64,000 bases of DNA from the sequence record PQ850631.1, one strand, 5' to 3'. Both the position numbers and the translations under genes were made by a program. Below are positions 6,040-58,769 of the stretch, piece by piece (the first letter of the stretch is position 1; each line of letters begins with the position of its first letter). The notes beneath the pieces were generated by a model that was given only the letters and a program-made list of their open reading frames with translations, searched no databases and was not told the DNA's origin. The stretch comes from Escherichia phage VerenaGrendelmeier_Bas101.

Positions 6040-6053
6040 ATAAGGTGAATGCC

Positions 6054-6509: not shown

Positions 6510-6892
6510 GGATTCCTGGCGTAAACTTATATCGAGTTGCGACAAAGGTTATCGGTCGCCAACCGATTCAATATTACATGTACAAGGGGCGCACCCTTGA
6601 TAAGATGCGCAACTATGTCACTACATATGAAGAACCAATCACTTTACTTGCTTCGGTGCAGGCTGTACTTCGAAACCAATACGTTGAGCTTGGATTAGAG
6701 CTTCAAAAGAACTATGTCAAAATCTGGGTGGACAAAGACATTGTTGACCTTGACCGCGACGCTTCCGGCGACTATTTTGTGTTTGGTGGCAAAACGTACA
6801 AGATGGAAGATGAAACGACATGGTTTGACCAAGATGGTTGGACGTCTTGCCTTGCCGTGGAAGTAAAACAAAGCTTTCCAGTGTCTACTTGA
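6506..6892 (+). CDS. hypothetical structural protein
   Basis: GTG start overlapping upstream stop (GTGA), suggesting translational coupling. Confidence 0.4.
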   Translation: MRIPGVNLYRVATKVIGRQPIQYYMYKGRTLDKMRNYVTTYEEPITLLASVQAVLRNQYVELGLELQKNYVKIWVDKDIVDLDRDASGDYFVFGGKTYKMEDETTWFDQDGWTSCLAVEVKQSFPVST

Positions 6893-6899
6893 GGTGTAT

Positions 6900-7475: not shown

Positions 7476-7476
7476 T

Positions 7477-7962
7477 ATGACAAAATCAAAAATGATAGAA
7501 AAACAGATAAAGGCGCTTCAATCGATGAAGGGTCTTACTGTAGAGGCAGGATGGTTTGATTCTACCAGATACCCTTCAGAAACTGGTGGAGAAGGGATGT
7601 TGGTGTCAGAAGTCGCGCGGCTTAATGAATTTGGTCACATAGCCGTTTTGAACTTTGGACAAGGTCCAGTCAGGGTAGAAGTGCCACCCAGACCATTCAT
7701 GAGATATGCCTATGAATTATTCGTTAGTGAGCGCAGTGAAATAGAGAATAAAATTGCTAAAAAGATTTTTTCCGGTAAAATAGACGCTAGACAGGCATTA
7801 GGTCAGATTGGGCTTGCGATGGAAGCAAAGATTGTCGAATCAATTAAAAACGGACCGTGGCAGCCAAACGCCAGATATACTGTACGTGTGAAGGGATTCG
7901 ACAAACCTTTGATTCACACCAGCCTCATGTGGCAATCTGTCAGCAGCCAAGTCATTAAATAA
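7477..7962 (+). CDS. hypothetical structural protein (possible tail completion/neck)
   Basis: ATG start, tight packing. Confidence 0.4.
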   Translation: MTKSKMIEKQIKALQSMKGLTVEAGWFDSTRYPSETGGEGMLVSEVARLNEFGHIAVLNFGQGPVRVEVPPRPFMRYAYELFVSERSEIENKIAKKIFSGKIDARQALGQIGLAMEAKIVESIKNGPWQPNARYTVRVKGFDKPLIHTSLMWQSVSSQVIK

Positions 7963-7974
7963 GAGGACACCGAC

Positions 7975-9513
7975 GTGATCAGTCAATCTCGTTATATTAA
8001 AATTGTATCAGGGGTCGGAGCAGGCGCGGCTGTTGCAGTTCGCAAACTGTCGCTTCGCATCATGACTTCCAATACAGTCCTGCCGCCGGGCATTGTAGCA
8101 GAATTTTCAACTGCTGATGCCGTTGGATCATATTTCGGTTTTTCTTCCGAAGAATACAAGCGTGCAGCATTGTATTTTGGATTCATCAGCAAGCAAATCA
8201 ACTCGCCTGATTCAATCAGCTTTTCTCGCGTTGTATCCACGGCGATTCCTGCAATGGTTATCGGCGATACTGAGCCTAAAACGCTTGCTACTTTTCAGGC
8301 ATTCACTGGCGCTATCTTAAGCATCACTTATGACGGCACAGACTACCTGACTGACGCCATCAACCTTTCAGCGGCAACAAGCCTTGCCAACGTAGCGGAA
8401 CTTTTGGAAACGGCAATCAACACCAAGTTTGCAGCCGAAGGTGGCACGTCGGTGCCTGCACTTGCTGATGCAGAAGTGTATTGGAATGCCAACACCCAGC
8501 AGTTCACTTTGGAAGCCGCTACGTCGACCGCTGGTGCTGGAAACCTTTCGATTAACGTCACAGGTCAACCGACAGACCCATCTCAGGCGCTTGGTTGGAC
8601 GACTACTGGCACCGTTACGGTTGCTGGCCAGGGTGTAGCAAGTCCGGTAGAAGCCATCGCGGCATCTGTGGAGATTTCCAACAACTTTGGCTCATTCCTT
8701 TTCGCTGGAGCAGACCGAACGCTGGAAGAAATCACAGCCGTTGCAGCTTGGACTCACTCGCAGAACAATATGTACATGTATCTGTTCTCGACTGCATTCG
8801 CCAACATTGGCTCATACTATACCGCACTGAAAGGTTACTCAGGCGTTGGTATGATGATCCGTGCAACCAACCTTGCGAATGATTACATCGACCAGGCACC
8901 TGCTGAAATTCTCGCGGCGACAAACTATAATACTGTAAATGCAACTCAAAACTACATGTACTATCAGTTTGACACGCGAAATGTTACTGTATCGACTGAT
9001 TCACGCGCAGATACTGCTGATCAAAACCGTGCAAACTATATCGGCGCTACTCAGCAAGCTGGTCAAACGCTCGCGTTCTTCCAGCGTGGTGTTCTGATGG
9101 GCGGGTCTACCGCAGCAGTTGACATGAACACTTATGCCAACGAGATGTGGCTTAAATCTGCTATTACTTCTCAGCTGTTCAGCATGTTCTTGAATCTTGG
9201 TCGCGTGCCTGCAAACGAAGAAGGCAAAGCGACTGTCCAAGCCATGATTCAAGTTGCTGTTGACAATGCGAAGGTTAACGGCACCATCTCTGTCGGTAAG
9301 GCGCTGACGGAAATTCAGAAACAGTACATCACGCAAACCTCCGGTGACAACACTGCTTGGCGGCAGGTTGAGACTATCGGTTATTGGTTGACTGTCGATT
9401 TTGACACTGAAACCACTTCCGATAACCGCACCGAATACTATGCAACATACACGCTAATCTACTCTAAAGATGATGCTGTGCGTCGCGTTGAAGGTCGTGA
9501 CGTTCTTATTTAA
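7975..9513 (+). CDS. tail sheath-like protein (DUF3383-like)
   Basis: 512 aa, immediately upstream of tube-like gene; AAGAGGA RBS then GTG. Confidence 0.5.
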   Translation: MISQSRYIKIVSGVGAGAAVAVRKLSLRIMTSNTVLPPGIVAEFSTADAVGSYFGFSSEEYKRAALYFGFISKQINSPDSISFSRVVSTAIPAMVIGDTEPKTLATFQAFTGAILSITYDGTDYLTDAINLSAATSLANVAELLETAINTKFAAEGGTSVPALADAEVYWNANTQQFTLEAATSTAGAGNLSINVTGQPTDPSQALGWTTTGTVTVAGQGVASPVEAIAASVEISNNFGSFLFAGADRTLEEITAVAAWTHSQNNMYMYLFSTAFANIGSYYTALKGYSGVGMMIRATNLANDYIDQAPAEILAATNYNTVNATQNYMYYQFDTRNVTVSTDSRADTADQNRANYIGATQQAGQTLAFFQRGVLMGGSTAAVDMNTYANEMWLKSAITSQLFSMFLNLGRVPANEEGKATVQAMIQVAVDNAKVNGTISVGKALTEIQKQYITQTSGDNTAWRQVETIGYWLTVDFDTETTSDNRTEYYATYTLIYSKDDAVRRVEGRDVLI

Positions 9514-9560
9514 ATAATTGCCGCCGTAACTGGCGGCCATCTCTCTGAGAGGAATCTGTA

Positions 9561-10028
9561 ATGATTAACGTTTCCGGTTTTGGCGCTTCGATTCGTTTGG
9601 TAGCATCAAACACTTTCCCTAATGGTGTGACCCTTTCTGATTTTGCAGATGATGCTGATCCGATTGACGCGCCGGACCTGCAAATCTCTGAGGCTGCAAT
9701 GGGCCTTAACGGTGACTTAGTAGTGTGGAACCGTGCAAACCCGCTTGAAGTAGGTGTGAACATCATCCCTACTTCTGAAAGTGATGTTAACTTGGACGTT
9801 CTTGCAGCTGCAAACCGCGTAGGCAAGCGCAAGAACTCCGCAAAAGACGTGATCACACTTGTGCTGACTTATCCTTCTGGAATGGTTATCACGCTAAACA
9901 AAGGCACCTTGACAACTGGTTCAGTAATTCCTGGCATCCAGTCTCAAGGTCGTGTGAAAACACGTCAATATCGCTTCAAGTTTGAGAACGTAGTCAAAAC
10001 TGGCGTGAGCAACCAAGAGATTTTATAA
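9561..10028 (+). CDS. tail tube-like protein
   Basis: 155 aa directly after sheath-like gene; N-terminus MINVSGFGASIRLVA; paralog of 10979-11476. Confidence 0.5.
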   Translation: MINVSGFGASIRLVASNTFPNGVTLSDFADDADPIDAPDLQISEAAMGLNGDLVVWNRANPLEVGVNIIPTSESDVNLDVLAAANRVGKRKNSAKDVITLVLTYPSGMVITLNKGTLTTGSVIPGIQSQGRVKTRQYRFKFENVVKTGVSNQEIL

Positions 10029-10357
10029 TGTATCAAATACCACTTGACAGCGTACCTAACCAGAATATCAGCTTTAACGTTGACGGTGCATATTGGCAGT
10101 TGCACATTTTTGCCGCTATCGAGCATATGTGTGCCGACGTATATCGCAATGGTGAACTTTTGATTCAAGGGGTGCGCTGTTTTGGTGGTATCCCAATGGT
10201 GCCTTATAAGTATCTCATGATTGGGTACGGTAATTTCATTTTCGACAGCGTACCTGATTATGAAAGGTTTAACTCAGGCGGCTGTAATCTATATTACATG
10301 TCAGAATCTGAGTTGGCTGAATTCCAGGCCACTGCTGAAGCGGAGTTTGCAATTTGA
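10028..10357 (+). CDS. hypothetical protein
   Basis: ATG overlaps upstream stop (TAATG). Confidence 0.4.
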   Translation: MYQIPLDSVPNQNISFNVDGAYWQLHIFAAIEHMCADVYRNGELLIQGVRCFGGIPMVPYKYLMIGYGNFIFDSVPDYERFNSGGCNLYYMSESELAEFQATAEAEFAI

Positions 10358-10710
10358 CAACTCTAACCATTGAAGTGAACGAAAATAATGACCTTTTTCT
10401 ACCTGATGGAAGAAACTTAAATATTCTTTCAGGAGAAAAAGCGATGGTGCAAGTAATCAAGGCCGCGCATCAGATGCGACTTGGTGAAGACTTGTACGAT
10501 ATAGAAAACGGGGTCGATTATTTGGGGACCGTTTTCAAGTCGCCCGTTGACGAAGACGGTGCGCGAAAGTCGATTGCAGATGCTATTCTGAAGAAAGCAG
10601 ACGTTGCCGGAATCGACTCATTGACTGTCACCATCCAAAACGGTATCCTTGGATTCACTGCAGAAGTGGTGACTATTTATGGCGAACGTATAAAGGTGAG
10701 TAATCAATAA
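10354..10710 (+). CDS. hypothetical protein
   Basis: TTG start overlapping upstream stop; start uncertain. Confidence 0.35.
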   Translation: MTTLTIEVNENNDLFLPDGRNLNILSGEKAMVQVIKAAHQMRLGEDLYDIENGVDYLGTVFKSPVDEDGARKSIADAILKKADVAGIDSLTVTIQNGILGFTAEVVTIYGERIKVSNQ

Positions 10711-10976
10711 TGGCACAAGTAATTCATTTTGCAAATGGCGTCATGAAATTTGGCGAAAAATTTGAAGACGCATCAGAGCTGTTTAATAAGAAGGTTGAGC
10801 CTGTTACAGAAATCAAAGAGCAGGTCGAAGAAAAGTCCGTTGAACAAAAACTCGATTTTGATTCCATGAGCGTTTCAGAATTGAAGTCTTATGCCAAAGA
10901 AAATGGCATAGACATCAAGGGTCTTTCTTATAAGGATGAAATTCTTGCTGCAGTTAAATCTGCATCTGCGGAGTAA
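10710..10976 (+). CDS. hypothetical protein
   Basis: AAGGTGAG RBS then ATG at 10710. Confidence 0.4.
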   Translation: MAQVIHFANGVMKFGEKFEDASELFNKKVEPVTEIKEQVEEKSVEQKLDFDSMSVSELKSYAKENGIDIKGLSYKDEILAAVKSASAE

Positions 10977-10978
10977 AC

Positions 10979-11476
10979 ATGGTCAATATTAGTGGATTTG
11001 GCACAAGCATTAGAATTGTCGCTCTTCAATCTTTTCCTGTTGGGCTGAATATCAGTTCTTTGTCTGATGACCAGGATTCGCTAATTATTGAGGAAGTTGA
11101 ATCAGTAGGTTATCAACTTACTTACGACGGCGGCATTTGCATATACGACAAAGCCGCCGTCGTTCGCGTATCCATTGCGGTCATTCCAAACACTGAAGAT
11201 GACATAAATCTTAAGCTTTTATTATCTGCCCGTAAAGGTGGATTCAAGTGGTTGCCAATTCAGGATGTGACATCAATGCTTATTACATATCCTGACGGTG
11301 GAAGGGTGGCATTCTCTAACGGAACAATAATCAGCGGTCCGCTTGGTGACTCCATAGAGCAATCAGGCCGTCGCAAGACAAACCGATACACATTTGTGTT
11401 TGCCAGCTACGGCGGCGCGCAGAGCACGTCTCAAATTGCCAAGGGCGTGGTGCAGAGCATATTGGGGTCCATTTAA
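10979..11476 (+). CDS. tail tube-like protein, paralog
   Basis: N-terminus MVNISGFGTSIRIVALQSFP parallels MINVSGFGASIRLVASNTFP of 9561-10028; similarity continues along the protein. Confidence 0.45.
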   Translation: MVNISGFGTSIRIVALQSFPVGLNISSLSDDQDSLIIEEVESVGYQLTYDGGICIYDKAAVVRVSIAVIPNTEDDINLKLLLSARKGGFKWLPIQDVTSMLITYPDGGRVAFSNGTIISGPLGDSIEQSGRRKTNRYTFVFASYGGAQSTSQIAKGVVQSILGSI

Positions 11477-12009
11477 TGGCTATCGATTTACTGTCATATA
11501 GTCTATCAAACAGAAGCTTCACGATAAAGAGCTTCAACCTTGGAGAAGTATCCACGCTTGGATGGGCCATAGTCAACGTCAAAATAAGACTCCAAGCGAA
11601 GATATTCAAAAACCAAAGGGAAGACGGCAGCTATATTGTCGATGGCAGAGTAAAGATGCCGCGAATACTCACTGTCACCGTGATAGCGCAAACGAAAAGT
11701 GCATCAGATGCAATAGCTAAAATGCTGCAAAACAGGTCGACTATATACACAATTAATTCCCGTGGTCTAATATTCGAACGTATGGTGCTGCAAAATAACA
11801 ACTTCAGCCAGGACGCTGACAATATAACGTCTCAGCCCATACAATTGGTCTTCCATGAGATATTAACACAGCAGGATGTGTCTATTCAAACAGCGCAGGC
11901 AGGCGACTCAACAGTAATAGAGCGCGGCATTGCATACATAAAAGAAACTTCTGCCAGCGTCACTGGCGTCGCTACAAAGGTGATGAATGGTATCAAGGGG
12001 ATGTTCTGA
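11476..12009 (+). CDS. hypothetical tail protein
   Basis: ATG overlapping upstream stop. Confidence 0.4.
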   Translation: MAIDLLSYSLSNRSFTIKSFNLGEVSTLGWAIVNVKIRLQAKIFKNQREDGSYIVDGRVKMPRILTVTVIAQTKSASDAIAKMLQNRSTIYTINSRGLIFERMVLQNNNFSQDADNITSQPIQLVFHEILTQQDVSIQTAQAGDSTVIERGIAYIKETSASVTGVATKVMNGIKGMF

Positions 12010-12569
12010 TGGACTTCGTTTCGATTCTGCTTTCTGGTCAATCTTTGACCATAACGAATGAGTCAACAGGTCTTCCTGTCTGGACAAGGCTTTCACCTGT
12101 TTCTGCAGAAATAACATCCCCAGCAGAAACAACTCAATTCCCTCTTGCTGGTACAGCCATGCAGGTTGTCGAAGTATCAAGCACGTCATCAGTAAGCAAT
12201 TTACAGGCGGCAAAGGTTGTAATGCCAGCCCATATGGCGTTAAACGTAATTTGCAATGACCAGTCTACAATTGAAAATATCATAAATTCATTTGATGATG
12301 ACGAAGTCACATTTTCAATAACTTCACGAAGCATCATTGCCAGTAAAATGTCGATGTCCGACGTTGAAATAACCCAGTCAGAAGAAAACTTGAATGGAGT
12401 CTCAATAGTAATAACCTTCGAGCAAACGTCATTTAGCATTCAAGGAAGCTTCGACCCTAAACAATCTGCAGACGAATCATCAAATGGTGTTGCTATTAAA
12501 GAACCAGTCAGTTTGACTACAACTGTGAGTTCGTTATATAATAAAATAAAATCAACAGTAGGAATATAA
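12009..12569 (+). CDS. hypothetical tail protein
   Basis: ATG overlapping upstream stop. Confidence 0.4.
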   Translation: MDFVSILLSGQSLTITNESTGLPVWTRLSPVSAEITSPAETTQFPLAGTAMQVVEVSSTSSVSNLQAAKVVMPAHMALNVICNDQSTIENIINSFDDDEVTFSITSRSIIASKMSMSDVEITQSEENLNGVSIVITFEQTSFSIQGSFDPKQSADESSNGVAIKEPVSLTTTVSSLYNKIKSTVGI

Positions 12570-12570
12570 A

Positions 12571-12987
12571 ATGAAGATCACCAACAAACAAACTGGTCGT
12601 ACAGTAGAAATTAAAATCAGCAAAATGACTGCGATGGAAGGCTGGAATATTCAGCGTCGCTTTGTCGAATTTGCAATGTCGAAAGACCCTGCTTTTCGTT
12701 CAGAGTATACGATGGAAGTGTTGAGCTTCGCAAAAGTCGAGCTTGATGTGGGCCAAGAAATCCCATTAAGTACTGGTGCACTAATTGACAACCATCTTGG
12801 TGACTGGGAAAACCTTAAAGAAGTCTTCGAAGCAGTCCTCATGGAGAACGGTATAAACCCAGATACTCACGCCGAGCGTGAAGGCTACTGGGAACAAGCT
12901 GGCGGCGAAATGGCTGCAGCATTCATCGGCGAATCGATGCGATTAATCGCGCCATTCCTCAGCGGCGAGACTCCAAACAAGGGGTAA
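12571..12987 (+). CDS. putative tail assembly chaperone
   Basis: Small acidic protein immediately upstream of tape measure gene. Confidence 0.3.
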   Translation: MKITNKQTGRTVEIKISKMTAMEGWNIQRRFVEFAMSKDPAFRSEYTMEVLSFAKVELDVGQEIPLSTGALIDNHLGDWENLKEVFEAVLMENGINPDTHAEREGYWEQAGGEMAAAFIGESMRLIAPFLSGETPNKG

Positions 12988-12990
12988 ACT

Positions 12991-15171
12991 GTGTCTGACT
13001 CATTAGAAAAATTTGTGCTTCAATATACGGTGGACTTGAAAGAGTCCATCAATCGTCTTGAGCAATTGCAAGATAAGGTTGATCAGACAAACAAAAAGGC
13101 GAAATCCGCTGGCAAAGATTTCTCTGGAGCATTCAAAGATGTTTTTGGCGAGCTAAAGCCGCTTACTGGTGAGCTAGGGTCAATTGACGGAATACTTGCG
13201 CGGCTGACATATCGTTTTGCCGCGCTCGTTCCTGTTGTCGCAGGATTGGCCGTCGTCGTCAAATCCATCGTTGATGTTCGAAAAGAATACGAAGCGCAAA
13301 GAAAGCTTGGTTTTGAAGCCGGACTCTCTCCAATGGGCGTCGAACAACTACAACGACAGTTGAATGAAAGTTCAGGTGGCATCCTTGGCGCACAGGGGTC
13401 GCGCGATTTAATCAGCAAAGCTTCTAATCTGGCATTCAATGCATACACCAACCCCGATGTGATGAACAAGGACAACTTGTTGTTGAACAAGATGGGGACA
13501 AGTCCTTTCAACAGTAACGGCGGCATCAAAGACACGAATCAGCTGCTTGATGAAATTGGAACAAAGCTGAGAAGTGTGAATGAGCAAACCGCTCGTGCTA
13601 TTGGTGCTCTGGCAGGTTTTACCGCCGATGAAGTCCGCGCCCTTCGCGAGCGCAACCAGTCTGTGAAAGAAAGCACACGCATAAGCGATGAGGAAACGGC
13701 AAAGCTGCAGCGCCAACAAGCTGCTCTTGAGACTATACGAAATAGTATGGGGCAAATTCAAGAAGATTGGCGGCGTATTGAACTGGTTATCGGTGAAAAC
13801 GTTATGCCTGCATTCTCGACGCTTGTCAGCAAGACCGCCGATACAGTCGAAGGATTCCAGATGATGTTCCAAAGAATGTCTGACGGATGGAGCGAATTTG
13901 TCGACAATTTCATCGCTGACTTGAAACACCCGTTTGATAAACAGGCGGCTGTTAACGAGCGTCACGAGCGTGCCGTTGATAGATGGATCACGCAGATGGC
14001 CGAAGGCGATGTGAAACGCCAGAGGAACCAGGAGCAAAACGCTGCTGAACAACGCTCTGCACAGGCTCTTTTTACTCGCGATATCAACCTGTTTTCAAGT
14101 GCCGTTTCAACCTTTGCTGGCGTGATTGATGAGCGTCAAGCTTGGGCGGCATGGGCAGGTGAAATCGGGCGCAGCGCAGGGCAATCCGCGATGCCTGGAA
14201 CACCAGCATTGAATACTGGCGCGACCGTAGGGAATAATCTTGGGTCAGGGAATCCGACAGCATATGACTCAATATATGAGGAAGCTTCAAAACGCTATGG
14301 CATACCTGTAGCGATGATGAAGGCTGTAACTGAAGTCGAATCTGGATTCAATCCAAATGCTGTGAGCGGAGCAGGCGCGACTGGTTTGATGCAAATCATG
14401 CCTTCTAACTTCAAGGGTCTTGGAATAACAGATGGTAATGATCCTCGACAAAACATTATGGGCGGCGCTCAACTTTTGAAAGAGTATCTGAACGCCGCCA
14501 ACGGCGATTGGAATCTTGCGCTGACGATGTATCACGGCGGCTACGACCGAAGCGGCTGGGGCAAGAACACACGCGCGTATCCTGGAAAGGTGATGGCCGC
14601 TCTCGCCCGACAATCCAATGGCGAGTATGCCACGACAGCGCCGCAAGGTGCACCAGTTACTCCAGTACTTAGCGGTAGCGGAGCGGAAGCGCCAAAGGGC
14701 CGTTATGCACCAGTACAAGGTCAATCGCGCCAAACGGTGCAATACAGGCAATTGCAAGAAGCCATTGCAGGATACCTGAACGTACCAGTTGAGCAGTTGA
14801 TGCAGGGACAAGTCAACAAAGGTGATATTGACTTTGCTCAAACTTACCTTAAGCTTGGCACGCAAAGGGATTATATTAAAAACATGCAACTGGCTTCAAC
14901 TCCAGGTGTAAGACCGAACATTCAAGCCGAAGCTATGAAAAACGCTCGTCTTGCTGCATTCCAACTTGAAGCATTCCAGAAATACGGCGGCGACCTTTCC
15001 GCGAATAGTCGACCTGGTGGGCGTGATATTACTATGGGTCAGAAAAACGTTGTCATCAACATCAACGGCGCTCAAGACCCACGCAGCACGGCATTCGAAA
15101 CGAAACGAGTGCTTGAACAAGATGATATCAACGACATAAACAACCTTACTGCTACACCTTTGAAGTGGTGA
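12991..15171 (+). CDS. tape measure protein with C-terminal lytic transglycosylase (SLT) domain
   Basis: 726 aa; coiled-coil N-terminal part, hydrophobic segment, SLT signature EVESGFNPNAVSGAGATGLMQIM...YHGGYD. Confidence 0.7.
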   Translation: MSDSLEKFVLQYTVDLKESINRLEQLQDKVDQTNKKAKSAGKDFSGAFKDVFGELKPLTGELGSIDGILARLTYRFAALVPVVAGLAVVVKSIVDVRKEYEAQRKLGFEAGLSPMGVEQLQRQLNESSGGILGAQGSRDLISKASNLAFNAYTNPDVMNKDNLLLNKMGTSPFNSNGGIKDTNQLLDEIGTKLRSVNEQTARAIGALAGFTADEVRALRERNQSVKESTRISDEETAKLQRQQAALETIRNSMGQIQEDWRRIELVIGENVMPAFSTLVSKTADTVEGFQMMFQRMSDGWSEFVDNFIADLKHPFDKQAAVNERHERAVDRWITQMAEGDVKRQRNQEQNAAEQRSAQALFTRDINLFSSAVSTFAGVIDERQAWAAWAGEIGRSAGQSAMPGTPALNTGATVGNNLGSGNPTAYDSIYEEASKRYGIPVAMMKAVTEVESGFNPNAVSGAGATGLMQIMPSNFKGLGITDGNDPRQNIMGGAQLLKEYLNAANGDWNLALTMYHGGYDRSGWGKNTRAYPGKVMAALARQSNGEYATTAPQGAPVTPVLSGSGAEAPKGRYAPVQGQSRQTVQYRQLQEAIAGYLNVPVEQLMQGQVNKGDIDFAQTYLKLGTQRDYIKNMQLASTPGVRPNIQAEAMKNARLAAFQLEAFQKYGGDLSANSRPGGRDITMGQKNVVININGAQDPRSTAFETKRVLEQDDINDINNLTATPLKW

Positions 15172-15175
15172 TAAT

Positions 15176-16048
15176 TTGAAAAAGAGAATCCTTAAAGTCA
15201 CCTTATCTATGCCGGATGGCACAAGCCAAGTGCTTGATGAAGGATTGATGCTTAGATGCCGAATCAAAAAGGCAGCACTTTCCGTGCAAAATAAGGCCAC
15301 AATCGAAGTCGCAGGATTGACAGGGTACTTAAGAGAGTACCTGCTTTCCAACTTCACCGCATTCAACAAACGTCTGCGTGATCAAGGCCAATTGGCGGCG
15401 AATTATGTCAACGTAACAATTGAAGCTGGATATAGAGAAGGCAACGTTGTTAGTAGCAACTTAGTCTACAAGGGGCAAGTCACAACGGTCGAGATAACAG
15501 CGCCGCCGCCGAACATCGTCATACGCATCACTTGCTACACCAACCAGATAAACAGGACTAAGTTTATCACTCAAGCTGCACCGTCAAACCCAACATTCAA
15601 AGAGTTTGTGGAGTGGTCGGCAAAGCAAATGGATATTGATACTGTTATATGCGATACTTCGATTAACAATCAGCGCCTTGTTAACCCAGGCCGCACAACA
15701 TATGTTGCAGCCGCCTTGTTGCTTGAGATTCAGAACTATCAAAGGAACTCTATTGCGGCATATATCGATGATGATACGCTCATCGTCAAGGATAAAGACA
15801 AAATTCTGAATCCAGAACAGATAACGGTGATTGAGGAATTTGTCGGAATACCGATGTGGAACGAGTGGGGTGCTGACTTCACTTGCATGTATAACGCGGA
15901 TTTGAAGCTTGCCCAAGGTGTGAAATTCAAATCAGTCTTAAACCCAAGCTTGAACGACACCACATTTGTCATCATGCAACTTGAATATGATTTAGCAAGT
16001 CGTGATGATATATTTACGGTGACGGGCGGCGTTGCACCATCGGCCTAA
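15176..16048 (+). CDS. hypothetical tail/baseplate protein
   Basis: TTG start after RBS-like GTGGTG; position after tape measure. Confidence 0.4.
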   Translation: MKKRILKVTLSMPDGTSQVLDEGLMLRCRIKKAALSVQNKATIEVAGLTGYLREYLLSNFTAFNKRLRDQGQLAANYVNVTIEAGYREGNVVSSNLVYKGQVTTVEITAPPPNIVIRITCYTNQINRTKFITQAAPSNPTFKEFVEWSAKQMDIDTVICDTSINNQRLVNPGRTTYVAAALLLEIQNYQRNSIAAYIDDDTLIVKDKDKILNPEQITVIEEFVGIPMWNEWGADFTCMYNADLKLAQGVKFKSVLNPSLNDTTFVIMQLEYDLASRDDIFTVTGGVAPSA

Positions 16049-54290: not shown

Positions 54291-54326
54291 TATAGTTAGC
54301 TGGCTAACCTTACGCATAGAATTTAA

Positions 54327-54615
54327 GCGTATAATGACGTAAGATTTGGACCTATCCGTAGTTCACTCCACACACTTCTATGGTGCGCCGCGACTGGGTT
54401 CAGTGGTACATCTTACGGATGATACGGATGATACGCGTCGCCGCTATACTTTATACAACTTTGAAAAAAACAATTAACTCCATTTTGAATTAATTTAAAT
54501 TAATTTTTTTCTACATCCTCATACTTATACTAAACTTATATTTATACGTATTATCCGTAAGATATAAGTAAAAACAAAGACTTGCGGCAATACGGATGAT
54601 ACGTCACGATACGCT
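54327..54615. repeat. second iteron-like region homologous to 1891-2160
   Basis: Shared blocks GCGTATAATGACGTA, ATCTTACGGATGATACG...GCCGC, AT-rich AATTAATTTAAA tract, TATCCGTA copies. Confidence 0.65.
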
Positions 54616-54778
54616 TCAACCAGCCAGCAGCGGCTAAGTCATTGATTTGCATAACAAGCGACGAAAGGGATGGATTTCTTTTATACGTATCAAACAGTAC
54701 ACCACGCACCACGGTCCGTTATCCATCCAGCACTATGATTTGTGTACGTTTATAGCCATAATGAACATCAATCTGCAC

Positions 54779-54807
54779 TTGAATATAATGTCCATCCATT
54801 GTATAAT
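54779..54807 (+). promoter_or_regulatory. sigma70-like promoter TTGAAT-17-TATAAT
   Basis: -35 at 54779-54784, -10 at 54802-54807, upstream of the TerS-like ORF. Confidence 0.35.
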
Positions 54808-54817
54808 TCACACTATT

Positions 54818-56298
54818 AATTTGCACTATGGGATTTTGCACTATGAGTCAAGATTATGTAGCGATGCCTGAAGACTTTGAAGACCCGCGATTCGCAGAGC
54901 ACAATCAGGCTTTATTCGATGAGTTCATTGACCTTGTTATTCAGGGCCATGACATGCGCGCAGCTTTTGCACTAGTATTTGGAATGGAAGTTGCAACGGA
55001 TAACTACACTGGCCAGCGAATCCTTTGCACGCAACGCAATCCATACTACAAGATGCGCTTCAAAAAGCGTATGGAAGAGATGCCACTCAAGGATTTGTGG
55101 AGCGTAAAAGGTGCAATTCACAATTTGGTCAAGCTTGTGCGTGATCCAGAAGTCGCGGCGTCAGCCAAGCTTAATGCTATTCGTGAACTGAATATCATCT
55201 ATGGCATCACGATGATTGATGAAAACGGCAATAGTAAAATGGGCCGTTCTATGGACGATTTCTACAAGGATTTTGGAGAGGCGGCCAAAGAAGGCGAGCA
55301 ATTCTCCCGCCACTAGCCAATTTGCACTATAAAACGGCCCTAGAACACATTGTCTCCACTTCTAGGGCCATCGGTAATACGACGGGGAAGGTTGCAACCG
55401 TAAACGCGTTAGAAAGTGTATTATTATAAGTCATCTTTTAGTCACCTTACGTAACAATTTACGACCTTCAACCGTCCAATCGAACGACTCCACCAGCAGA
55501 TTCGCACTATAACCTAAGATGATGCGCCCTTTCTCGTTATCGACCCGCCAACAAGTCTCGAATAGCATTCGATTTGCACTATTAACTATCGCCGCAACGC
55601 GCGTTGGGTAAACGCAATTTGCACTATGGTCGTAAAGGGATAAGGTGCGACCACTTCCGATGGACAATGTAGCGATGAGAATAAGCGTATTCATAAGCCA
55701 CCAATTTGCACTATGAAAAGCGACCCCGAAGGGCCGCCATTCGATTAGATAATCTGGAATGTGTAGGACTTGTTGCCGAACTCAAAGTTCAAGCGTCCAG
55801 CTTCTTTAAGCTTCATGCGGAAGCGAATGTGCTTACTATCCGGTAAGCCCAGCGCGGCGAACGCCACGCGGACCGATTTGAACTCGCCTACACCCTCGAC
55901 CATAACGCCGTTACGCGTGAGACGCTTTTGCGCCACTTCCTTGTTATCCCAACTTTTTGCAATACCTTCGCTATTCGAACGGCGATGGGAAGGAGTTCCA
56001 TTTTGCACTACGCAATTTGCACTATCGTTTAGGCCGCTTTTAACGAAGGCTTCATACTCTTCGTCGGTCATCGCGTCGAGTTCTTCCTGGGTCGGCTCGG
56101 CCTTTTTAACGACCGCACGCGCCTTATGCGTTTTTACATCGCTGGACACTTCCTCGCGCGGCTTCGCGTCGGGAATGGGCGATTCGTTGGACGGCTCATC
56201 GAGCGCGTTTAAGGACTCGATTAACGCGATTACGCGAGTCTCGGCGGTACGGCGGTCCGCAAATTTCTTAATCGGCTTCGAACCGGAATTTGCATTAT
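54818..56298 (+). repeat. strand-specific array of about 10 copies of the 12-mer AATTTGCACTAT (and one-mismatch variants)
   Basis: Copies at 54818, 54833, 55319, 55499, 55571, 55616, 55703, 55999, 56014, 56287, all in the same orientation, irregular spacing, crossing coding and non-coding DNA. Confidence 0.75.
54828..55316 (+). CDS. terminase small subunit-like DNA-binding protein (orphan; start ambiguous 54828/54843)
   Basis: HTH-like GHDMRAAFALVFG followed by LKDLWSVKGAIHNLVKLVRDPEVAASAKLNAIRELNIIYGIT; no large terminase gene adjacent. Confidence 0.35.
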   Translation: MGFCTMSQDYVAMPEDFEDPRFAEHNQALFDEFIDLVIQGHDMRAAFALVFGMEVATDNYTGQRILCTQRNPYYKMRFKKRMEEMPLKDLWSVKGAIHNLVKLVRDPEVAASAKLNAIRELNIIYGITMIDENGNSKMGRSMDDFYKDFGEAAKEGEQFSRH

Positions 56299-56371
56299 AA
56301 AATGCAACGAGGTCGGCGGTCTTAGTTGCGATAACGTCGCCGCTAGTCGAGAAACGATTTAAGCTAACCAT
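55745..56371 (-). CDS. hypothetical protein (208 aa)
   Basis: Long ORF with codon usage distinct from the structural genes (AAG, CGC, TCG-rich); contains embedded 12-mer copies. Confidence 0.4.
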   Translation of the reverse strand: MVSLNRFSTSGDVIATKTADLVAFYNANSGSKPIKKFADRRTAETRVIALIESLNALDEPSNESPIPDAKPREEVSSDVKTHKARAVVKKAEPTQEELDAMTDEEYEAFVKSGLNDSANCVVQNGTPSHRRSNSEGIAKSWDNKEVAQKRLTRNGVMVEGVGEFKSVRVAFAALGLPDSKHIRFRMKLKEAGRLNFEFGNKSYTFQII

Positions 56372-56451
56372 AATGAACTCCTATTTGTTAGGGCGCTAGG
56401 CGCGAAAGAATTTTATTAAAGCGCCGCGCGCGACGCTCTAAAAATCCTCTC

Positions 56452-56766
56452 TTACTCTTCGTCGTCTTCGATTAATTCGAGGGCGAAGGCGTAAGCTTTG
56501 CTATCGTAATTAACTAAAACGGCGAGTTCGAACTCGTTAATAAACGCCGTTTTACCGCATAAATTTAATTCCGCATCGACTTCGAAGAATCCGTTTTCGT
56601 CGCGCTCTAAGCGAGAAGCAGCGAGTTGCTCGATTACCGTCGCGTCGTTAATTTCTTCGCCTAAGCGAACGCCGGAGAATTTCGCGAGAATTTCGCCGTA
56701 AGTAAGCGTAACGCCCTGGACTTCGGCGGTTGCGTTTTCGAGGGTAAAGCGGGTAACGATAGCCAT
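56452..56766 (-). CDS. small acidic protein (104 aa)
   Basis: Strongly acidic, ends ...LIEDDEE. Confidence 0.45.
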   Translation of the reverse strand: MAIVTRFTLENATAEVQGVTLTYGEILAKFSGVRLGEEINDATVIEQLAASRLERDENGFFEVDAELNLCGKTAFINEFELAVLVNYDSKAYAFALELIEDDEE

Positions 56767-56906
56767 AATAAACTCCTAGTTGGGAGAGGCGTTAACGACC
56801 TATTCGTTAACTCATCCCGTCCCGATATGAGTACATTATAATATAGTGTAGAAAAAAGTAAAGCACTTTTTCGATAAAAATGCGATAAATTATTTTATCT
56901 TTTTTC

Positions 56907-56934
56907 TTTACTTCTTCGTACACTCGCGTATACT
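56907..56934 (+). promoter_or_regulatory. sigma70-like promoter TTTACT-16-TATACT with conserved GTACACT spacer and TTGTTTATATCGAGA leader
   Basis: Near-identical architecture to 57305-57333. Confidence 0.45.
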
Positions 56935-56988
56935 TGTTTATATCGAGACGGGCGATGGCCCTTCCTTCTACTAGCATCGGGAGTTTTA

Positions 56989-57293
56989 TTATGACCACTT
57001 TAATCTCTTCTATCCTTACTTACGACGAAGACCGTTTAACCGTTCGCTCTCTTATCGCCGCCGTTAACGCGGAACTAGAATCCACCATTATTAAGGTCCG
57101 CGCGGTCGCTTTCGTCGGCCTTTCCTTCGACGATATTAAGTACGCCGAACGTAGCGCCATCCGCTTCGCGAAGACCGACGACGAAGCCGTTACCCTTATC
57201 GAGACGGTTACGCCGCGCGGCGAAGCGTTAATTATCGTCGAGTATATCGACGTAGAAGGCGATAAGGCTTATAAATATTTTATTGCAGAATAA
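56989..57293 (+). CDS. small acidic protein (101 aa)
   Basis: ATG at 56989; acidic. Confidence 0.45.
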
Positions 57294-57304
57294 CGAAAAA
57301 GTGC

Positions 57305-57333
57305 TTTACTTCTTCGTACACTAAGACTATAAT
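57305..57333 (+). promoter_or_regulatory. sigma70-like promoter TTTACT-17-TATAAT, paralog of 56907-56934
   Basis: Shares CTTTACTTCTTCGTACACT and the GTTTTATATCGAGAG leader. Confidence 0.45.
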
Positions 57334-57400
57334 GTTTTATATCGAGAGGGGATGAGGTAGCGAATAGGTCGCTACCCGCCCGACCAACTAGGAGATTATT

Positions 57401-57691
57401 ATGATTACTTTAGCCGCTATCCGTTCCGCTCGCGTCGAGACTTCCGAAAACTCTAACGTATTTGGCGAAACCTTAGAGAGCGTTTATCTCTCTAACGTAG
57501 ACGCAACTATCGAACCTATTTATGAGCCGATCAACTTCCTCGACCTTTACAAGTATCGCGACGAGGACATCGTATCATCCCGCGTAACGATTAACGGCTT
57601 CGTCTATACGATTACCGAAATCGGCGGCGAATATCTCGCTGTACCGCAACTCGGCGGCGAAGTAACTTATTTTAAAATTGTCTCCTTATAA
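57401..57691 (+). CDS. small acidic protein (96 aa)
   Basis: GGAG RBS, ATG at 57401. Confidence 0.45.
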   Translation: MITLAAIRSARVETSENSNVFGETLESVYLSNVDATIEPIYEPINFLDLYKYRDEDIVSSRVTINGFVYTITEIGGEYLAVPQLGGEVTYFKIVSL

Positions 57692-57710
57692 TATCCTTCC
57701 GTTACTAATA

Positions 57711-57736
57711 GGCCGCGCTTAGTCGCGGCTTTTCTT
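57711..57736 (+). terminator. rho-independent terminator
   Basis: GCCGCG...CGCGGC stem followed by TTTTCTT. Confidence 0.6.
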
Positions 57737-57854
57737 CGTCCCTATCTCGATGCGCTTCTCCGCGAAAACTCCTTTATCCTTCCCTTCGTCGTCGCATAAT
57801 CTTCGTCGAGATGCGCCTTAGTTCGCATAACAGGTATTACGTTAAATGGAGAAC

Positions 57855-57931
57855 ATCGCGTAAGTCCTTGTTTTATATAGACACCTATATCGGACCGTTA
57901 GGGCGGGTCGCGTAAGTCGTTGTTTTATAAA
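57855..57931 (+). repeat. direct repeat pair TCGCGTAAGTC(C/G)TTGTTTTATA
   Basis: Copies at 57855-57879 and 57907-57931; shares TTGTTTTATA with the leaders of the two promoters upstream. Confidence 0.55.
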
Positions 57932-58055
57932 GGCGCAAAACTTTCCCTTCGTTCCGAACTAAAACGAGGAATATGCCGACCCTTCGCCCGAAAATAGTAC
58001 GCATGCGAAATCACATGCATCTCGAATAATCCCCACCGATATTATCCTACACGCA

Positions 58056-58118
58056 ATCATTCGCTTTCGAATCATTATGCTTCATATTATTATGCGTCGA
58101 ATCATTCGCTTTCGAATT
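58056..58118 (+). repeat. direct repeat pair AATCATTCGCTTTCGAAT
   Basis: Copies at 58056-58073 and 58101-58118, each with a TTCGAA palindrome. Confidence 0.55.
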
Positions 58119-58205
58119 GTAACGCTGGAAACTGTAACGGCGATTGATTATTGCGTTCGTGTGGTTTTTAGGGCATGGGTCTTTTGGTGCGTTTTGGTGC
58201 TTGAT

Positions 58206-58318
58206 GGAATTTGCGGTACACTAATCAAAATACGACACATTTGGTCCACTAACTTTTCAAAGAAAAAGTCCTAGACAGTACCGTACTATTTTGTACCCAC
58301 AGGAATTTGCAGTACACT
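58206..58318 (+). repeat. direct repeat pair GGAATTTGC(G/A)GTACACT
   Basis: Copies at 58206-58222 and 58302-58318; combines the AATTTGC core with the GTACACT promoter-spacer motif. Confidence 0.5.
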
Positions 58319-58388
58319 CCTGCGCGGCAGGCAAAATAAAGGGCCGCCCTAAGCGACCCACGATTCATGGTTAAATCAGCAACACCCA

Positions 58389-58769
58389 CTATTCACTCTT
58401 ATGGGCATCACCAAATCCATCAGCAATCTGGCTGATCAACGACTCAATGGACACAGTTTTACCAATTGATCGAGCGGTTATGGCGAGCATATTATCAATC
58501 AAACCACGATTGGCTTCACATGTTCCAGGCTTTAATTCATCTTTAGGACCACCAAAAAGCTGGTCGCGCAGACTTTCAAGAGAACGCTCAATATTTTCCA
58601 ACTTCTCTTCTAAATCGGATTGGCGACGTAAAACCCACGTCAAGTCACGGTTGCCAACTTCCAATCCATCAGAATAGCAAGGTGGAGCGTCAATTTTGAT
58701 GCTGGAACCAAAAGCAGTGCCGCTGCCTTTAGTATAAGTATGGCTCATAGAATCATTTTTATTTGACAT
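58389..58769 (-). CDS. hypothetical protein (126 aa)
   Basis: Start set at internal ATG with AAAGG RBS; the longer ORF-track N-terminus reads through a terminator hairpin. Confidence 0.4.
   Translation of the reverse strand: MSNKNDSMSHTYTKGSGTAFGSSIKIDAPPCYSDGLEVGNRDLTWVLRRQSDLEEKLENIERSLESLRDQLFGGPKDELKPGTCEANRGLIDNMLAITARSIGKTVSIESLISQIADGFGDAHKSE

What the first reader, a model, noticed from the sequence alone, without database searches (positions are those of the whole stretch)
55400..58380. Accessory island of small acidic proteins with duplicated promoters and distinct codon usage
Between the TerS-like gene and the leftward fiber block lie four ORFs (55745-56371, 56452-56766, 56989-57293, 57401-57691), three of them small (96-104 aa) and strongly acidic. 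Their codon usage (AAG, CGC, TCG, CTT rather than AAA, CGT, CTG) differs from the structural genes. The two plus-strand genes each carry a near-identical sigma70-like promoter (CTTTACTTCTTCGTACACT...TATA(C/A)T...GTTT(T)ATATCGAGA), and the leader motif TTGTTTTATA recurs twice more in the downstream non-coding DNA. Small acidic early proteins under strong individual promoters are the typical form of DNA-mimic or anti-defence proteins (Ocr/ArdA-like), so this may be a host-takeover or anti-restriction island, possibly acquired horizontally.
Basis: partly seen in the sequence, partly recalled or inferred. Interest (0 to 1): 0.75.

Follow-up and report, generated by a model that had tools for sequence, protein, structure and literature searches.

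The report
TG/CA-free early gene cassette in phage terminal repeat
The region is the first-expressed gene cassette of a Wifcevirus coliphage, sitting inside its 3.7-kb terminal repeat, and its DNA is kept almost free of the dinucleotides TG and CA, an actively maintained constraint I found described nowhere in the papers I searched.

Summary
The window is a Wifcevirus, an E. coli myophage 94-97% identical to WFC, Mansfield and Bas98. The four ORFs exist. Three are small and acidic (pI 4.1-4.6); the 208-aa one is basic and is an ancient core gene. The promoter is present three times, not twice.

The whole "island" lies inside the direct terminal repeat (window ~54482-58184/58265). Its layout is a miniature of the phage T5 pre-early region.

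The "distinct codon usage" is really a dinucleotide rule. From ~56030 to ~58000, TG/CA is 3-8 times depleted (o/e 0.13-0.5; elsewhere 1.18 ± 0.14). CG and TA are raised and GC% is unchanged. The rule holds in all codon phases, on both strands and in non-coding DNA. His, Gln, Cys, Trp and Met make up 1.3% of residues, against 10.2% in the reference genes.

The same tract, promoter type and a covarying 5'UTR hairpin recur in the terminal repeats of Serratia (Myosmarvirus) phages. Pantoea phage Kyle has the tract and promoters in the same place. Substitution simulations show the depletion is maintained now.

The small proteins evolve fast and are swapped between isolates. None matches Ocr, ArdA or any known family. 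An anti-defence role is plausible but unproven. A DNA-mimic role is unsupported. Why TG/CA is avoided is unexplained.

The parts
54482..58184 (.). Direct terminal repeat (one collapsed copy). The right limit is 58184 by Mansfield PhageTerm or 58265 by the end of the WFC record.
   Evidence: The Mansfield record annotates a DTR at 1-3673, and the WFC paper reports a ~3.7-kb repeat. The record starts and ends were mapped onto the window. This is inferred by homology and was not measured for this isolate.
54843..55316 (+). TerS-like gene in the left part of the DTR. Its composition is normal.
   Evidence: phrog_4783 at 1.9e-75. Mansfield annotates it as terminase small subunit by HHpred. dN/dS 0.04.
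54814..56301 (+). Array of same-strand repeats (C/A)AATTTGCACTAT: 9 exact TTTGCACTA plus near copies. One copy carries the prefix CCACCAGC, which is the complement of Chi.
   Evidence: All exact copies in the 64 kb lie here, on one strand. The array is conserved in 7 other Wifcevirus loci. Kyle and MTx have CCACCAGC 9 and 4 times in the same zone.
55745..56371 (-). g208: a conserved basic two-domain protein, probably DNA-binding. Its N-terminal half lies in the TG/CA-depleted tract.
56452..56766 (-). g104: acidic (net -15) orphan protein in a variable slot.
   Evidence: Present in only 10 of 28 Wifcevirus records. 12 records carry a g96 paralogue there instead. Two of the loci examined have nothing there. 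No family match.
56835..56862 (-). Promoter P3 (TTTACT-16-TATAAT) for the leftward unit.
   Evidence: inverted copy of P2, 88%.
56791..56811 (-). 5'UTR hairpin of the P3 leader (GUUAACG-AAUAGGU-CGUUAAC).
   Evidence: 98% of cells paired, 5 of 7 pairs with compensatory changes, loop invariant.
56907..56934 (+). Promoter P1 (TTTACT-16-TATACT) for g100.
56991..57293 (+). g100: acidic (net -7) orphan protein.
   Evidence: Present in all 28 Wifcevirus records and nowhere else. dN/dS 0.29.
57305..57333 (+). Promoter P2 (TTTACT-17-TATAAT) for g96.
57356..57376 (+). 5'UTR hairpin of the P2 leader (GGUAGCG-AAUAGGU-CGCUACC).
   Evidence: The same loop with a different stem occurs in Serratia phages MTx and WR01.
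57401..57691 (+). g96: acidic (net -8) protein and founder of a small family.
   Evidence: The family comprises Wifcevirus g96 (two allele classes, 65% identical), the 94-aa paralogue and the Serratia 101-aa protein. The fold also matches Erwinia TropicalSun and Pantoea Kyle proteins. AF2 pLDDT 81. No PDB fold match. dN/dS 0.39.
57710..57731 (+). Intrinsic terminator ending the rightward unit.
   Evidence: Annotated as a terminator in Mansfield and WFC.
57732..58184 (.). Highly conserved non-coding stretch at the inner end of the DTR, with direct repeats (57856/57908 and 58039/58084) and an inverted repeat (57806-57828 / 58003-58025).
   Evidence: It is about 97-99% conserved (my estimate from the alignment), while g96 diverges to 65%. 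It occupies the same position as the T5 injection stop signal.
56030..58000 (.). TG/CA-depleted, CG- and TA-enriched tract (the real 'island').

Best explanation
This is the pre-early gene cassette of a Wifcevirus, that is, the genes expressed first after infection. It occupies the inner ~2 kb of the ~3.7-kb direct terminal repeat and is built like a miniature of the T5 first-step-transfer region.

Proposed mechanism:
1. When the DNA end enters the cell, unmodified host sigma-70 RNA polymerase fires three near-identical promoters (CTTTACT-N16/17-TATAAT followed by a conserved start region TATCGRGA).
2. Two of the leaders carry a conserved 5' hairpin.
3. The transcripts encode small, acidic, fast-evolving, exchangeable effector proteins (g104, g100, g96). 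The leftward unit continues into g208, a conserved protein that is probably DNA-binding.
4. A terminator and a conserved repeat-rich non-coding stretch close the cassette at the inner edge of the repeat.
5. The DNA of the cassette is kept nearly free of TG/CA steps by a constraint that is operating now.

My inference for step 5: the first-exposed DNA is kept free of most motifs read by sequence-specific nucleases. These could be host type I/III restriction enzymes, or the phage's own host-shutoff activity. The protection would last until the effectors have acted, much as T5 depends on a restriction-site-free first-step-transfer DNA.

Shown here: the anatomy, the composition, its conservation and its maintenance. 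The position in the repeat rests on homology to annotated relatives. Inferred only: the timing of expression, the roles of the effectors, and the reason for TG/CA avoidance.
For: Identity and position.
- 94-97% identical to Wifcevirus genomes.
- The repeat is annotated in Mansfield (1-3673) and reported for WFC and WFH. The mapping puts it at window 54482-58184/58265.

Promoters, leaders and terminator.

Hairpin covariation: 98% of cells paired, 5 of 7 pairs compensatory, 0 of 500 shuffles reach the observed score.

T5 comparison: in T5 the repeat is the first-step-transfer DNA. It has divergent sigma-70 units, a terminator, and then the injection stop signal at its inner end.

Composition.
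- TG/CA 0.13-0.51 in the tract, against 1.18 +/- 0.14 elsewhere.
- Present in all three codon phases, on both strands and in non-coding DNA.
- H+Q+C+W+M make up 1.3% of residues, against 10.2% in the reference genes (p = 2e-9).
- Even the -35 element is TTTACT rather than TTGACA.

Maintenance.
- The 86 differences between the two g96 allele classes should raise TG/CA counts from 11 to 28 +/- 4. The observed count is 6 (0 of 5000 simulations).
- Control genes show no such effect.

Recurrence.
- Serratia MTx and WR01 have the same tract in the inner 2 kb of their repeat. MTx's repeat is 1-3566 and its tract 1500-3350. They share the promoter type, the leader and the hairpin loop, although the proteins are about 30% identical or unrelated.
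- Pantoea phage Kyle has the tract and promoters at 1800-3300.
- The tract is absent from the Pbunavirus regions examined (14-1, Ab27), the T5 repeat and the T7 early region.

Effector-like behaviour.
- dN/dS is 0.29-0.39, against 0.04-0.07 for neighbours.
- The left slot is filled by g104, by a g96 paralogue, or is empty. ECML-117 has an extra gene.

Fit with restriction phenotypes.
- Wifceviruses resist EcoKI, EcoCFT_I, EcoRI (36 site counts), EcoRV and EcoCFT_II, but are very sensitive to EcoP1_I (PMC11990801).
- In the window and in the 7 related repeats examined there are 0 EcoRI, 0 EcoRV, 0 EcoAI and 0-1 EcoKI sites.
- EcoP1 AGACC sites are present in both orientations in every one of them.
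Against: - There are no expression data for this phage group, so the promoters are consensus matches only.
- Which genome end enters first, and whether entry happens in two steps, is unknown.
- The left 1.5 kb of the repeat has normal composition.
- The absence of EcoRI and EcoRV sites from a 3.7-kb repeat is not significant on its own (about 1 and 0.3 expected).
- Many enteric type II sites contain no TG/CA (from memory), and the Serratia tract is full of GAATTC. General restriction-site avoidance therefore does not obviously demand this particular dinucleotide rule.
- I do not know the EcoCFT_II recognition site, so that part of the pattern could not be tested.
- No small protein matches a known anti-defence family.
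- The T5 repeat shows no TG/CA depletion, only a mild CpG rise.
Confidence: 0.55

Rival explanations
1. Self-immunity to the phage's own host-shutoff factor. A virion-borne or pre-early phage activity (a nuclease, or a blocker of transcription or RNA) acts on short motifs containing TG/CA, which means on essentially all normal DNA or RNA. Only the TG/CA-free cassette stays functional during a T5-like pause, while the rest of the genome is still in the capsid.
For: - The layout resembles the T5 repeat, including a repeat-rich non-coding stretch where T5 has its injection stop signal.
- The depletion stops where the cassette stops, while the rest of the genome has host-like TG/CA (1.18).
- The life cycle is reported as very fast (PMC7048862, PMC11990801).
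- From general knowledge: T5 degrades host DNA during the first-step-transfer stage, and how its own DNA is spared is not known.
Against: - No nuclease-like gene was recognised in the cassette.
- The left 1.5 kb of the repeat is not depleted.
- T5 itself shows no TG/CA depletion.
- Two-step entry has not been shown for these phages.
Confidence: 0.2
2. A constraint at the RNA or translation level. Removing TG/CA deletes every bacterial start codon (ATG, GTG, TTG) and TGA on both strands, or removes targets of an endoribonuclease (for example MazF, which cuts ACA). The very abundant early transcripts would then be translated only from the intended starts, or would survive host mRNA interferases.
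For: - Start-codon triplets on both strands number 34 per kb in the tract, against 112 per kb elsewhere.
- ACA/TGT is at 0.31 and TCA/TGA at 0.13 of the rest-of-genome frequency.
- The mechanical ORF listing shows few spurious ORFs in the tract.
Against: - TG and CA are depleted about equally on the sense strand, with no consistent asymmetry.
- The depletion continues a few hundred bases past the terminators and into non-transcribed spacers in the window, MTx and WR01.
- The transcribed C-terminal half of g208 is hardly depleted (0.85-0.92).
Confidence: 0.1
3. Avoidance of host DNA-binding or silencing proteins. CA/TG is the kinkable step used by Fis, IHF and CRP and occurs in the -35 and extended -10 promoter elements. 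A tract without it would bind few host proteins and carry no spurious promoters.
For: - The effect is at the DNA level and symmetric between strands.
- Only the pyrimidine-purine steps are redistributed. All other dinucleotides are unchanged.
Against: - The T7 and T5 early regions show nothing similar.
- TA, the step preferred by H-NS, is raised rather than lowered.
- The cost is large (five amino acids almost lost) for a diffuse benefit.
Confidence: 0.07
4. A foreign origin or a local mutation bias, with no function. The tract would be a recent horizontal acquisition from a donor with odd composition, or the product of context-specific mutation tied to the terminal repeat.
For: - The composition differs sharply from the rest of the genome, and CTAG is not avoided (8-10 times the rest).
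- The small genes have no homologues outside this phage group.
Against: - The same bias is kept in three genera whose cassette proteins are about 30% identical or unrelated.
- Substitutions within the genus avoid creating TG/CA (0 of 5000 simulations).
- Only part of the repeat is affected.
- No cellular genome known to me has TG/CA near 0.2-0.4 (from memory).
Confidence: 0.08

Closest known systems
Phage T5 pre-early (first-step-transfer) region in the 10.2-kb terminal repeat
   Same: - The genes sit inside a long direct terminal repeat.
- Transcription units diverge from strong host sigma-70 promoters.
- Most products are small proteins of unknown function.
- A terminator is followed by a repeat-rich non-coding stretch at the inner end of the repeat.
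- Both phages resist restriction without DNA modification (PMC8594841; PMC11990801).
   Different: - The cassette is about 5 times smaller.
- No family matches were found that would link it to A1, A2 or dmp.
- Two-step DNA entry is not demonstrated.
- T5 has no TG/CA depletion, only CpG o/e of 1.0-1.5 in the repeat against 0.5-0.9 next to it.
Bacillus phage SPO1 host-takeover module in the terminal redundancy
   Same: Many small genes, each with its own strong early promoter, located in the terminal repeat (from general knowledge; not tested here).
   Different: - The host is Gram-positive and the phage DNA contains hydroxymethyluracil.
- I know of no dinucleotide constraint there.
- Homology was not tested.
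T7 gene 0.3 (Ocr) and class I early genes; ArdA-type DNA mimics
   Same: Small acidic proteins made first, from strong host promoters at the leading end.
   Different: - No sequence match.
- The g96 model is alpha/beta with no PDB match.
- Charge is -7 to -15, against -28 for Ocr.
- The T7 early DNA has normal TG/CA.
Anti-defence islands in the leading region of conjugative plasmids
   Same: The first DNA to enter carries variable sets of small counter-defence genes with dedicated early promoters (from general knowledge).
   Different: - Those regions enter as single-stranded DNA and use different promoters.
- No homology.
- I know of no comparable composition rule.
CpG suppression in the cytomegalovirus immediate-early gene to evade ZAP (PMC7498042)
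   Same: A dinucleotide-level composition rule limited to the first-expressed genes. There it is explained as evasion of a host sensor before countermeasures exist.
   Different: - A eukaryotic virus, an RNA sensor, and CpG depleted rather than enriched.
- This is an analogy only.

Membership tests
Ocr / ArdA-type DNA-mimic anti-restriction proteins | Sequence membership (Pfam or NCBIfam models for Ocr, ArdA and related families) | tested here: not met
   No Pfam, NCBIfam or PHROG hit to any such family for g104, g100 or g96.
Ocr / ArdA-type DNA-mimic anti-restriction proteins | A fold that displays carboxylates in a DNA-like array, with similarity to solved mimics | tested here: not met
Ocr / ArdA-type DNA-mimic anti-restriction proteins | Very high net negative charge | tested here: inconclusive
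   g104 is -15 over 104 aa (21% D+E), g100 is -7 and g96 is -8. Ocr is -28 over 117 aa (29% D+E).
Ocr / ArdA-type DNA-mimic anti-restriction proteins | Inhibition of type I restriction in vivo or in vitro | not testable with these tools
   Needs cloning and plating assays.
T5-like pre-early / first-step-transfer module | Location inside a long direct terminal repeat | tested here: met
   By homology to Mansfield (PhageTerm DTR 1-3673), WFC (~3.7 kb) and MTx (1-3566). Not measured for this isolate.
T5-like pre-early / first-step-transfer module | Divergent units under strong host sigma-70 promoters, then a terminator and a repeat-rich non-coding stretch at the inner end of the repeat | tested here: met
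   compared with the T5 annotation. These are sequence-level matches only.
T5-like pre-early / first-step-transfer module | Homologues of T5 A1, A2 or dmp | tested here: not met
   The Pfam, PHROG and NCBIfam scans of the repeat-borne proteins gave no named family beyond phrog_4730 and phrog_4783, both of unknown function. No direct comparison with the T5 proteins was run.
T5-like pre-early / first-step-transfer module | Two-step DNA entry that depends on pre-early proteins | not testable with these tools
   Needs an interrupted-infection experiment.
phrog_4730 family (g208) | Full-length match to the family profile | tested here: met
   E = 1.9e-89 over residues 4-208. 832 clusters in the exhaustive search. 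The function of the family is unknown.

The most novel reading that the evidence does not exclude
TG/CA content acts as a self/non-self code during the first minute of infection. A factor, either the phage's own shutoff activity or a widespread enterobacterial defence, destroys or silences any DNA or RNA that carries TG/CA-containing motifs. The terminal-repeat cassette has been driven to near-zero TG/CA so that it alone stays active. This has happened at the cost of five amino acids and of consensus promoter elements. It would be the bacterial counterpart of dinucleotide-based sensing such as ZAP with CpG.
Probability: 0.25. Interest if true: 0.9.

Novelty: new variant of a known kind. Interest (0 to 1): 0.78.

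Why it matters
1. [quoted passage not shown] This cassette is the obvious place to look, and it makes the question directly testable. Its small proteins are candidate new anti-defence factors. The EcoP1 sites inside it offer a simple explanation for the one system that still works.

2. A 3-8-fold, actively maintained depletion of a single dinucleotide step is confined to ~2 kb and conserved across three genera. Two full-text searches for composition bias in phage early genes and for these phage groups found no description of it. It implies that some unknown reader of TG/CA-containing motifs acts very early in infection of Enterobacterales.

3. The rule distorts protein composition (almost no His, Gln, Cys, Trp or Met). 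It therefore shows how a DNA-level constraint can shape which proteins can evolve in a locus.

4. A simple composition scan could find similar cassettes in other phages.

Tried and rejected
Family scans.
- Pfam, PHROGs and NCBIfam on all repeat-borne proteins gave nothing beyond two unknown-function PHROGs.
- Rfam on 54300-58500 gave nothing.

Homology searches for the small proteins.
- tblastn against 50,697 phage records found homologues only in Wifcevirus.
- Word-indexed searches of 5.8 billion proteins for g96, alone and as a profile, returned only 20 proteins: Wifcevirus-like ones plus one 101-aa protein of the Serratia type.
- hhalign of g104 and g100 against the g96 family showed no relation.

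g208.
The exhaustive search recovered the diversity.
- I tested whether g208 is a chimera of an island copy and an ancestral copy. Both halves are about equally close to both Serratia paralogues, so the idea was dropped.

Looking for the cassette elsewhere.
- The promoter-leader motif TTTATATCGARACGGG was searched in IMG/VR. Of 23 stretches, only the Wifcevirus and MTx contigs carry the tract; the others look like chance matches.
- No TG/CA depletion was found in the T5 repeat, the T7 early region, Pbunavirus 14-1 and Ab27, or the fetched region of Salmonella phage PCSE1.

Restriction sites.
- I guessed CACAG as the EcoCFT_II site. I withdrew the guess, because the BASEL supplement says only that the site is "similar" to EcoP1's.

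Literature.
- Two searches, on composition bias in phage early genes and on these phage groups, found no prior description.

Full report
WHAT THE WINDOW IS

The 3.1 kb around the finding is 94-97% identical to 28 records of the genus Wifcevirus. These are E. coli and Shigella myophages such as WFC, WFH, Mansfield, ECML-117 and Bas98-100.

The Mansfield record annotates bases 1-3673 as a direct terminal repeat predicted by PhageTerm. The paper describing WFC and WFH reports a repeat of about 3.7 kb (PMC6563267). I mapped the starts and ends of those records onto the window. This puts the repeat at about 54482 to 58184 (Mansfield) or 58265 (WFC).

CHECK OF THE OBSERVATION

The four ORFs exist:
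- 55745-56371(-), 208 aa.
- 56452-56766(-), 104 aa.
- 56991-57293(+), 100 aa.
- 57401-57691(+), 96 aa.

The three small proteins are acidic: pI 4.07, 4.55 and 4.23, with net charge -15, -7 and -8. The 208-aa protein is basic, pI 8.9. T7 Ocr is -28 over 117 residues, so only g104 approaches that range.

The two plus-strand promoters are real consensus matches: TTTACT-16-TATACT at 56907-56934 and TTTACT-17-TATAAT at 57305-57333. There is a third copy on the minus strand (56862 to 56835) that drives the leftward genes. That promoter and its whole 65-nt leader are an inverted copy of the g96 promoter and leader (88% and 82%). TTGTTTTATA does recur, inside two 25-nt direct repeats at 57856 and 57908.

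THE REAL SIGNAL BEHIND 'DISTINCT CODON USAGE'

GC content is unremarkable, but one dinucleotide step is nearly missing. Over 55745-58000, the observed/expected values are as follows:

| Dinucleotide | This stretch | Rest of the window |
|---|---|---|
| CA/TG | 0.37 | 1.17 |
| CG | 2.03 | 1.09 |
| TA | 1.19 | 0.67 |

The other dinucleotides are essentially unchanged.

In 300-nt windows the tract from about 56030 to 58000 scores 0.13-0.51. The 610 windows elsewhere in the 64 kb have mean 1.18, sd 0.14 and minimum 0.72.

The depletion has these properties:
- It is seen in all three codon phases.
- It affects both TG and CA on the sense strand.
- It holds in genes of both orientations and in non-coding DNA.
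- All eight TG/CA-containing trinucleotide pairs are depleted. CAG/CTG (0.11) and TCA/TGA (0.13) are the most depleted.
- CTAG, normally avoided, is 8-10 times more frequent than in the rest of the genome. GATC is depleted.

AAA:AAG is 50:50, as in the reference genes. TCG is never used as a codon. CTT is lower than in the reference. The rule is that codons containing TG or CA are not used: CTG, TTG, GTG, ACA and CCA each occur 0 times.

The constraint reaches the proteins. His, Gln, Cys, Trp and non-initiator Met together make up 1.3% of the three small proteins, against 10.2% in 28 long reference ORFs (Fisher p = 1.7e-9). Even the -35 elements are TTTACT rather than TTGACA.

IS IT A FADING FOREIGN SIGNATURE OR A LIVE CONSTRAINT?

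Two lines of evidence say the constraint is live.

First, the same tract occurs in other genera at the same place.
- Serratia phage MTx (Myosmarvirus) has a PhageTerm repeat at 1-3566 and a tract at 1500-3350, with TG/CA 0.12-0.29 and CG 1.65-2.43 over most of it (0.42 and 1.27 at its edge).
- Serratia phage WR01 shows the same.
- Pantoea phage Kyle (Kylevirus) has the Wifcevirus gene layout and a tract at 1800-3300, with TG/CA 0.20-0.44.
- These cassettes share the promoter type (GCTTTACT-N17-TATAAT) and the start of the transcript (TATCGRRA). Their proteins are either about 30% identical to the Wifcevirus ones or unrelated.

A passive foreign signature would not survive that much divergence.

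Second, substitutions within Wifcevirus avoid creating TG/CA. The two allele classes of g96 differ at 86 of 291 positions. Random substitutions of the same number and type would raise the TG/CA count from 11 to 28 +/- 4. The observed count is 6 (0 of 5000 simulations). The control genes terS and g208 behave as expected under randomness.

The tract is absent from the following regions that I examined:
- the corresponding regions of Pbunavirus 14-1 and Ab27;
- the fetched region of Salmonella phage PCSE1;
- the T5 terminal repeat;
- the T7 early region.

A search of IMG/VR with the promoter-leader motif found the tract only in Wifcevirus and MTx contigs.

THE GENES

g208 is not accessory.
- It matches phrog_4730 at 1.9e-89.
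- It has homologues in 355 phage records, including Pbunavirus, Xanthomonas, Xylella and Luteibacter phages, and in 832 clusters of the 1.84-billion-protein library.
- Its dN/dS is 0.07.
- Its AlphaFold model (pLDDT 85.5) has two confident domains joined by a disordered acidic linker.
- A 23.0-kDa protein was detected by mass spectrometry in a phage lysate. By gene order and mass I identify it as the vB_Eco4M-7 orthologue of g208. The small acidic proteins are not in the part of that table I read (PMC7048862).

g96 founds a small family.
- The family has two Wifcevirus allele classes (65% identical), a 94-aa paralogue and a Serratia 101-aa protein.
- Its model (pLDDT 81, pTM 0.69) is a mixed alpha/beta fold.
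- It does match predicted structures of small acidic proteins from Erwinia phage TropicalSun and Pantoea phage Kyle (TM 0.64-0.65).

g100 is in all 28 Wifcevirus records and nowhere else.

g104 is in 10 of 28 records. In 12 others the slot holds the g96 paralogue. In two of the loci examined (ECML-117 and RCIP0319) the slot is empty.

ECML-117 has an extra 69-aa basic ORF after g96. MTx and WR01 differ in one cassette gene although their neighbouring gene is 97% identical.

dN/dS is 0.29 for g100 and 0.39 for g96, against 0.04 for terS. These are therefore real proteins that evolve fast and are exchangeable.

None of them hits any family in Pfam, NCBIfam or PHROGs. g104 and g100 are not related to the g96 family.

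RNA ELEMENT

The leaders of P2 and P3, and the leader of the Serratia g96 homologue, carry a 7-bp hairpin with an invariant loop AAUAGGU.
- 98% of cells pair.
- 5 of 7 pairs show compensatory changes.
- No shuffle out of 500 reaches the observed covariation score.

Rfam has nothing here. A 5' hairpin of this kind would be expected to stabilise the mRNA or bind a regulator. Which of these applies is not known.

HOW IT MOST LIKELY WORKS

The anatomy is a small version of the T5 terminal repeat. In both there are:
- divergent units under strong host promoters;
- small proteins;
- a terminator (57710-57731 here);
- a repeat-rich non-coding stretch at the inner edge of the repeat (57732-58184 here).

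That non-coding stretch is more conserved among Wifceviruses than the genes are.

I therefore read the region as the pre-early host-takeover cassette. The timing of expression is inferred from promoter consensus and position. It has not been shown.

[quoted passage not shown] In the window and in the seven related repeats examined:
- there are no EcoRI, EcoRV or EcoAI sites and at most one EcoKI site;
- EcoP1 AGACC sites are present in both orientations.

This fits the T5 precedent, recalled from the literature on T5 'ris' mutants. In T5, restriction protection comes from pre-early functions, and a site in the first-entering DNA makes the phage sensitive. The zero counts are not statistically strong, however.

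My preferred reading of the TG/CA rule is that the first-exposed DNA avoids motifs read by nucleases until the effectors act. I hold it at moderate confidence. The rivals are:
- self-immunity to the phage's own shutoff factor;
- removal of all start codons, or of RNase targets;
- avoidance of host DNA-bending proteins;
- mutation bias.

The symmetric depletion and its extension past the terminators favour a DNA-level cause over an RNA-level one.

COMPARISON WITH WHAT IS KNOWN, AND NOVELTY

The kind of module is known: early host-takeover genes in a long terminal repeat, as in T5 and SPO1. The small proteins are not members of any known anti-defence family. The claim of DNA mimicry is not supported.

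What I could not find described in two full-text searches is the actively maintained, near-complete avoidance of one dinucleotide step. It is confined to the cassette and conserved across three genera.

I classify the finding as a new variant of a known kind, with an unexplained feature that deserves experiments.

Noticed in passing
window 54814-56301 (+); also 58206-58222 and 58302-58318: An array of same-strand repeats (C/A)AATTTGCACTAT. There are 9 exact TTTGCACTA copies, all on the + strand and all within 54820-56024, plus near copies. None occurs elsewhere in the 64 kb. Some lie inside the terS-like gene and, antisense, inside g208. The array is conserved in 7 other Wifcevirus loci. It may be a terminase or replication recognition array, or binding sites for g208.
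   Followed up: partly
NC_048796 (L036) 255-1972; NC_048759 (L005) 179-1276; window 55490: CCACCAGC, the complement of the Chi site GCTGGTGG, occurs 9 times on one strand in the left 2 kb of the Pantoea phage Kyle record and 4 times in MTx. It occurs once exactly in the window's repeat. By my reading of Chi polarity, the orientation is the active one for RecBCD entering from the left genome end. This suggests a Chi barrier protecting the cassette and hints that the left end is the exposed one.
   Followed up: partly
window 57732-58184: The non-coding stretch after the terminator is about 97-99% conserved among Wifceviruses (my estimate from the alignment), more than the adjacent genes. It holds direct repeats (57856/57908, 25 nt; 58039/58084, 43 nt) and an inverted repeat (57806-57828 / 58003-58025). 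It occupies the same position as the T5 injection stop signal.
   Followed up: partly
window 54407-54429 / 54544-54566; 54413, 54422, 54590: A 23-nt inverted repeat (87%) brackets the inferred left limit of the terminal repeat (~54482). ATACGGATGATACG occurs three times around it. This is a candidate terminase cutting or recognition site.
   Followed up: no
window 56791-56811 (-) and 57356-57376 (+); L003 ~10212-10230; L005: A conserved 5'UTR hairpin with an invariant loop AAUAGGU and covarying stems, found in front of g96-family genes in Wifcevirus and Myosmarvirus. No Rfam family matches it.
   Followed up: yes
T5 NC_005859 (L007) 1-16000: The T5 terminal repeat (first-step-transfer DNA) has CpG o/e of 1.0-1.5, against 0.5-0.9 in the next 6 kb. 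This is a milder composition shift in another first-entering DNA.
   Followed up: no
window 57029, 57172 (+), 56318 (-), 54881 (+): EcoP1 (AGACC) sites lie in the early cassette in both orientations, here and in all 7 related repeats. EcoRI, EcoRV and EcoAI sites are absent from the repeat. This matches the published sensitivity to EcoP1_I alone.
   Followed up: partly
ECML-117 NC_025441 (L009) 3210-3419: An extra 69-aa basic ORF, annotated as a transcriptional regulator, is inserted between g96 and the terminator in ECML-117. It is absent from the window, Mansfield and Bas98.
   Followed up: partly
window 54762-54807 (+): Two overlapping strong sigma-70-like promoters (10 of 12 matches each) lie just upstream of the terS-like gene in the left part of the repeat. 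That would be an unusual place and timing for a terminase subunit.
   Followed up: no
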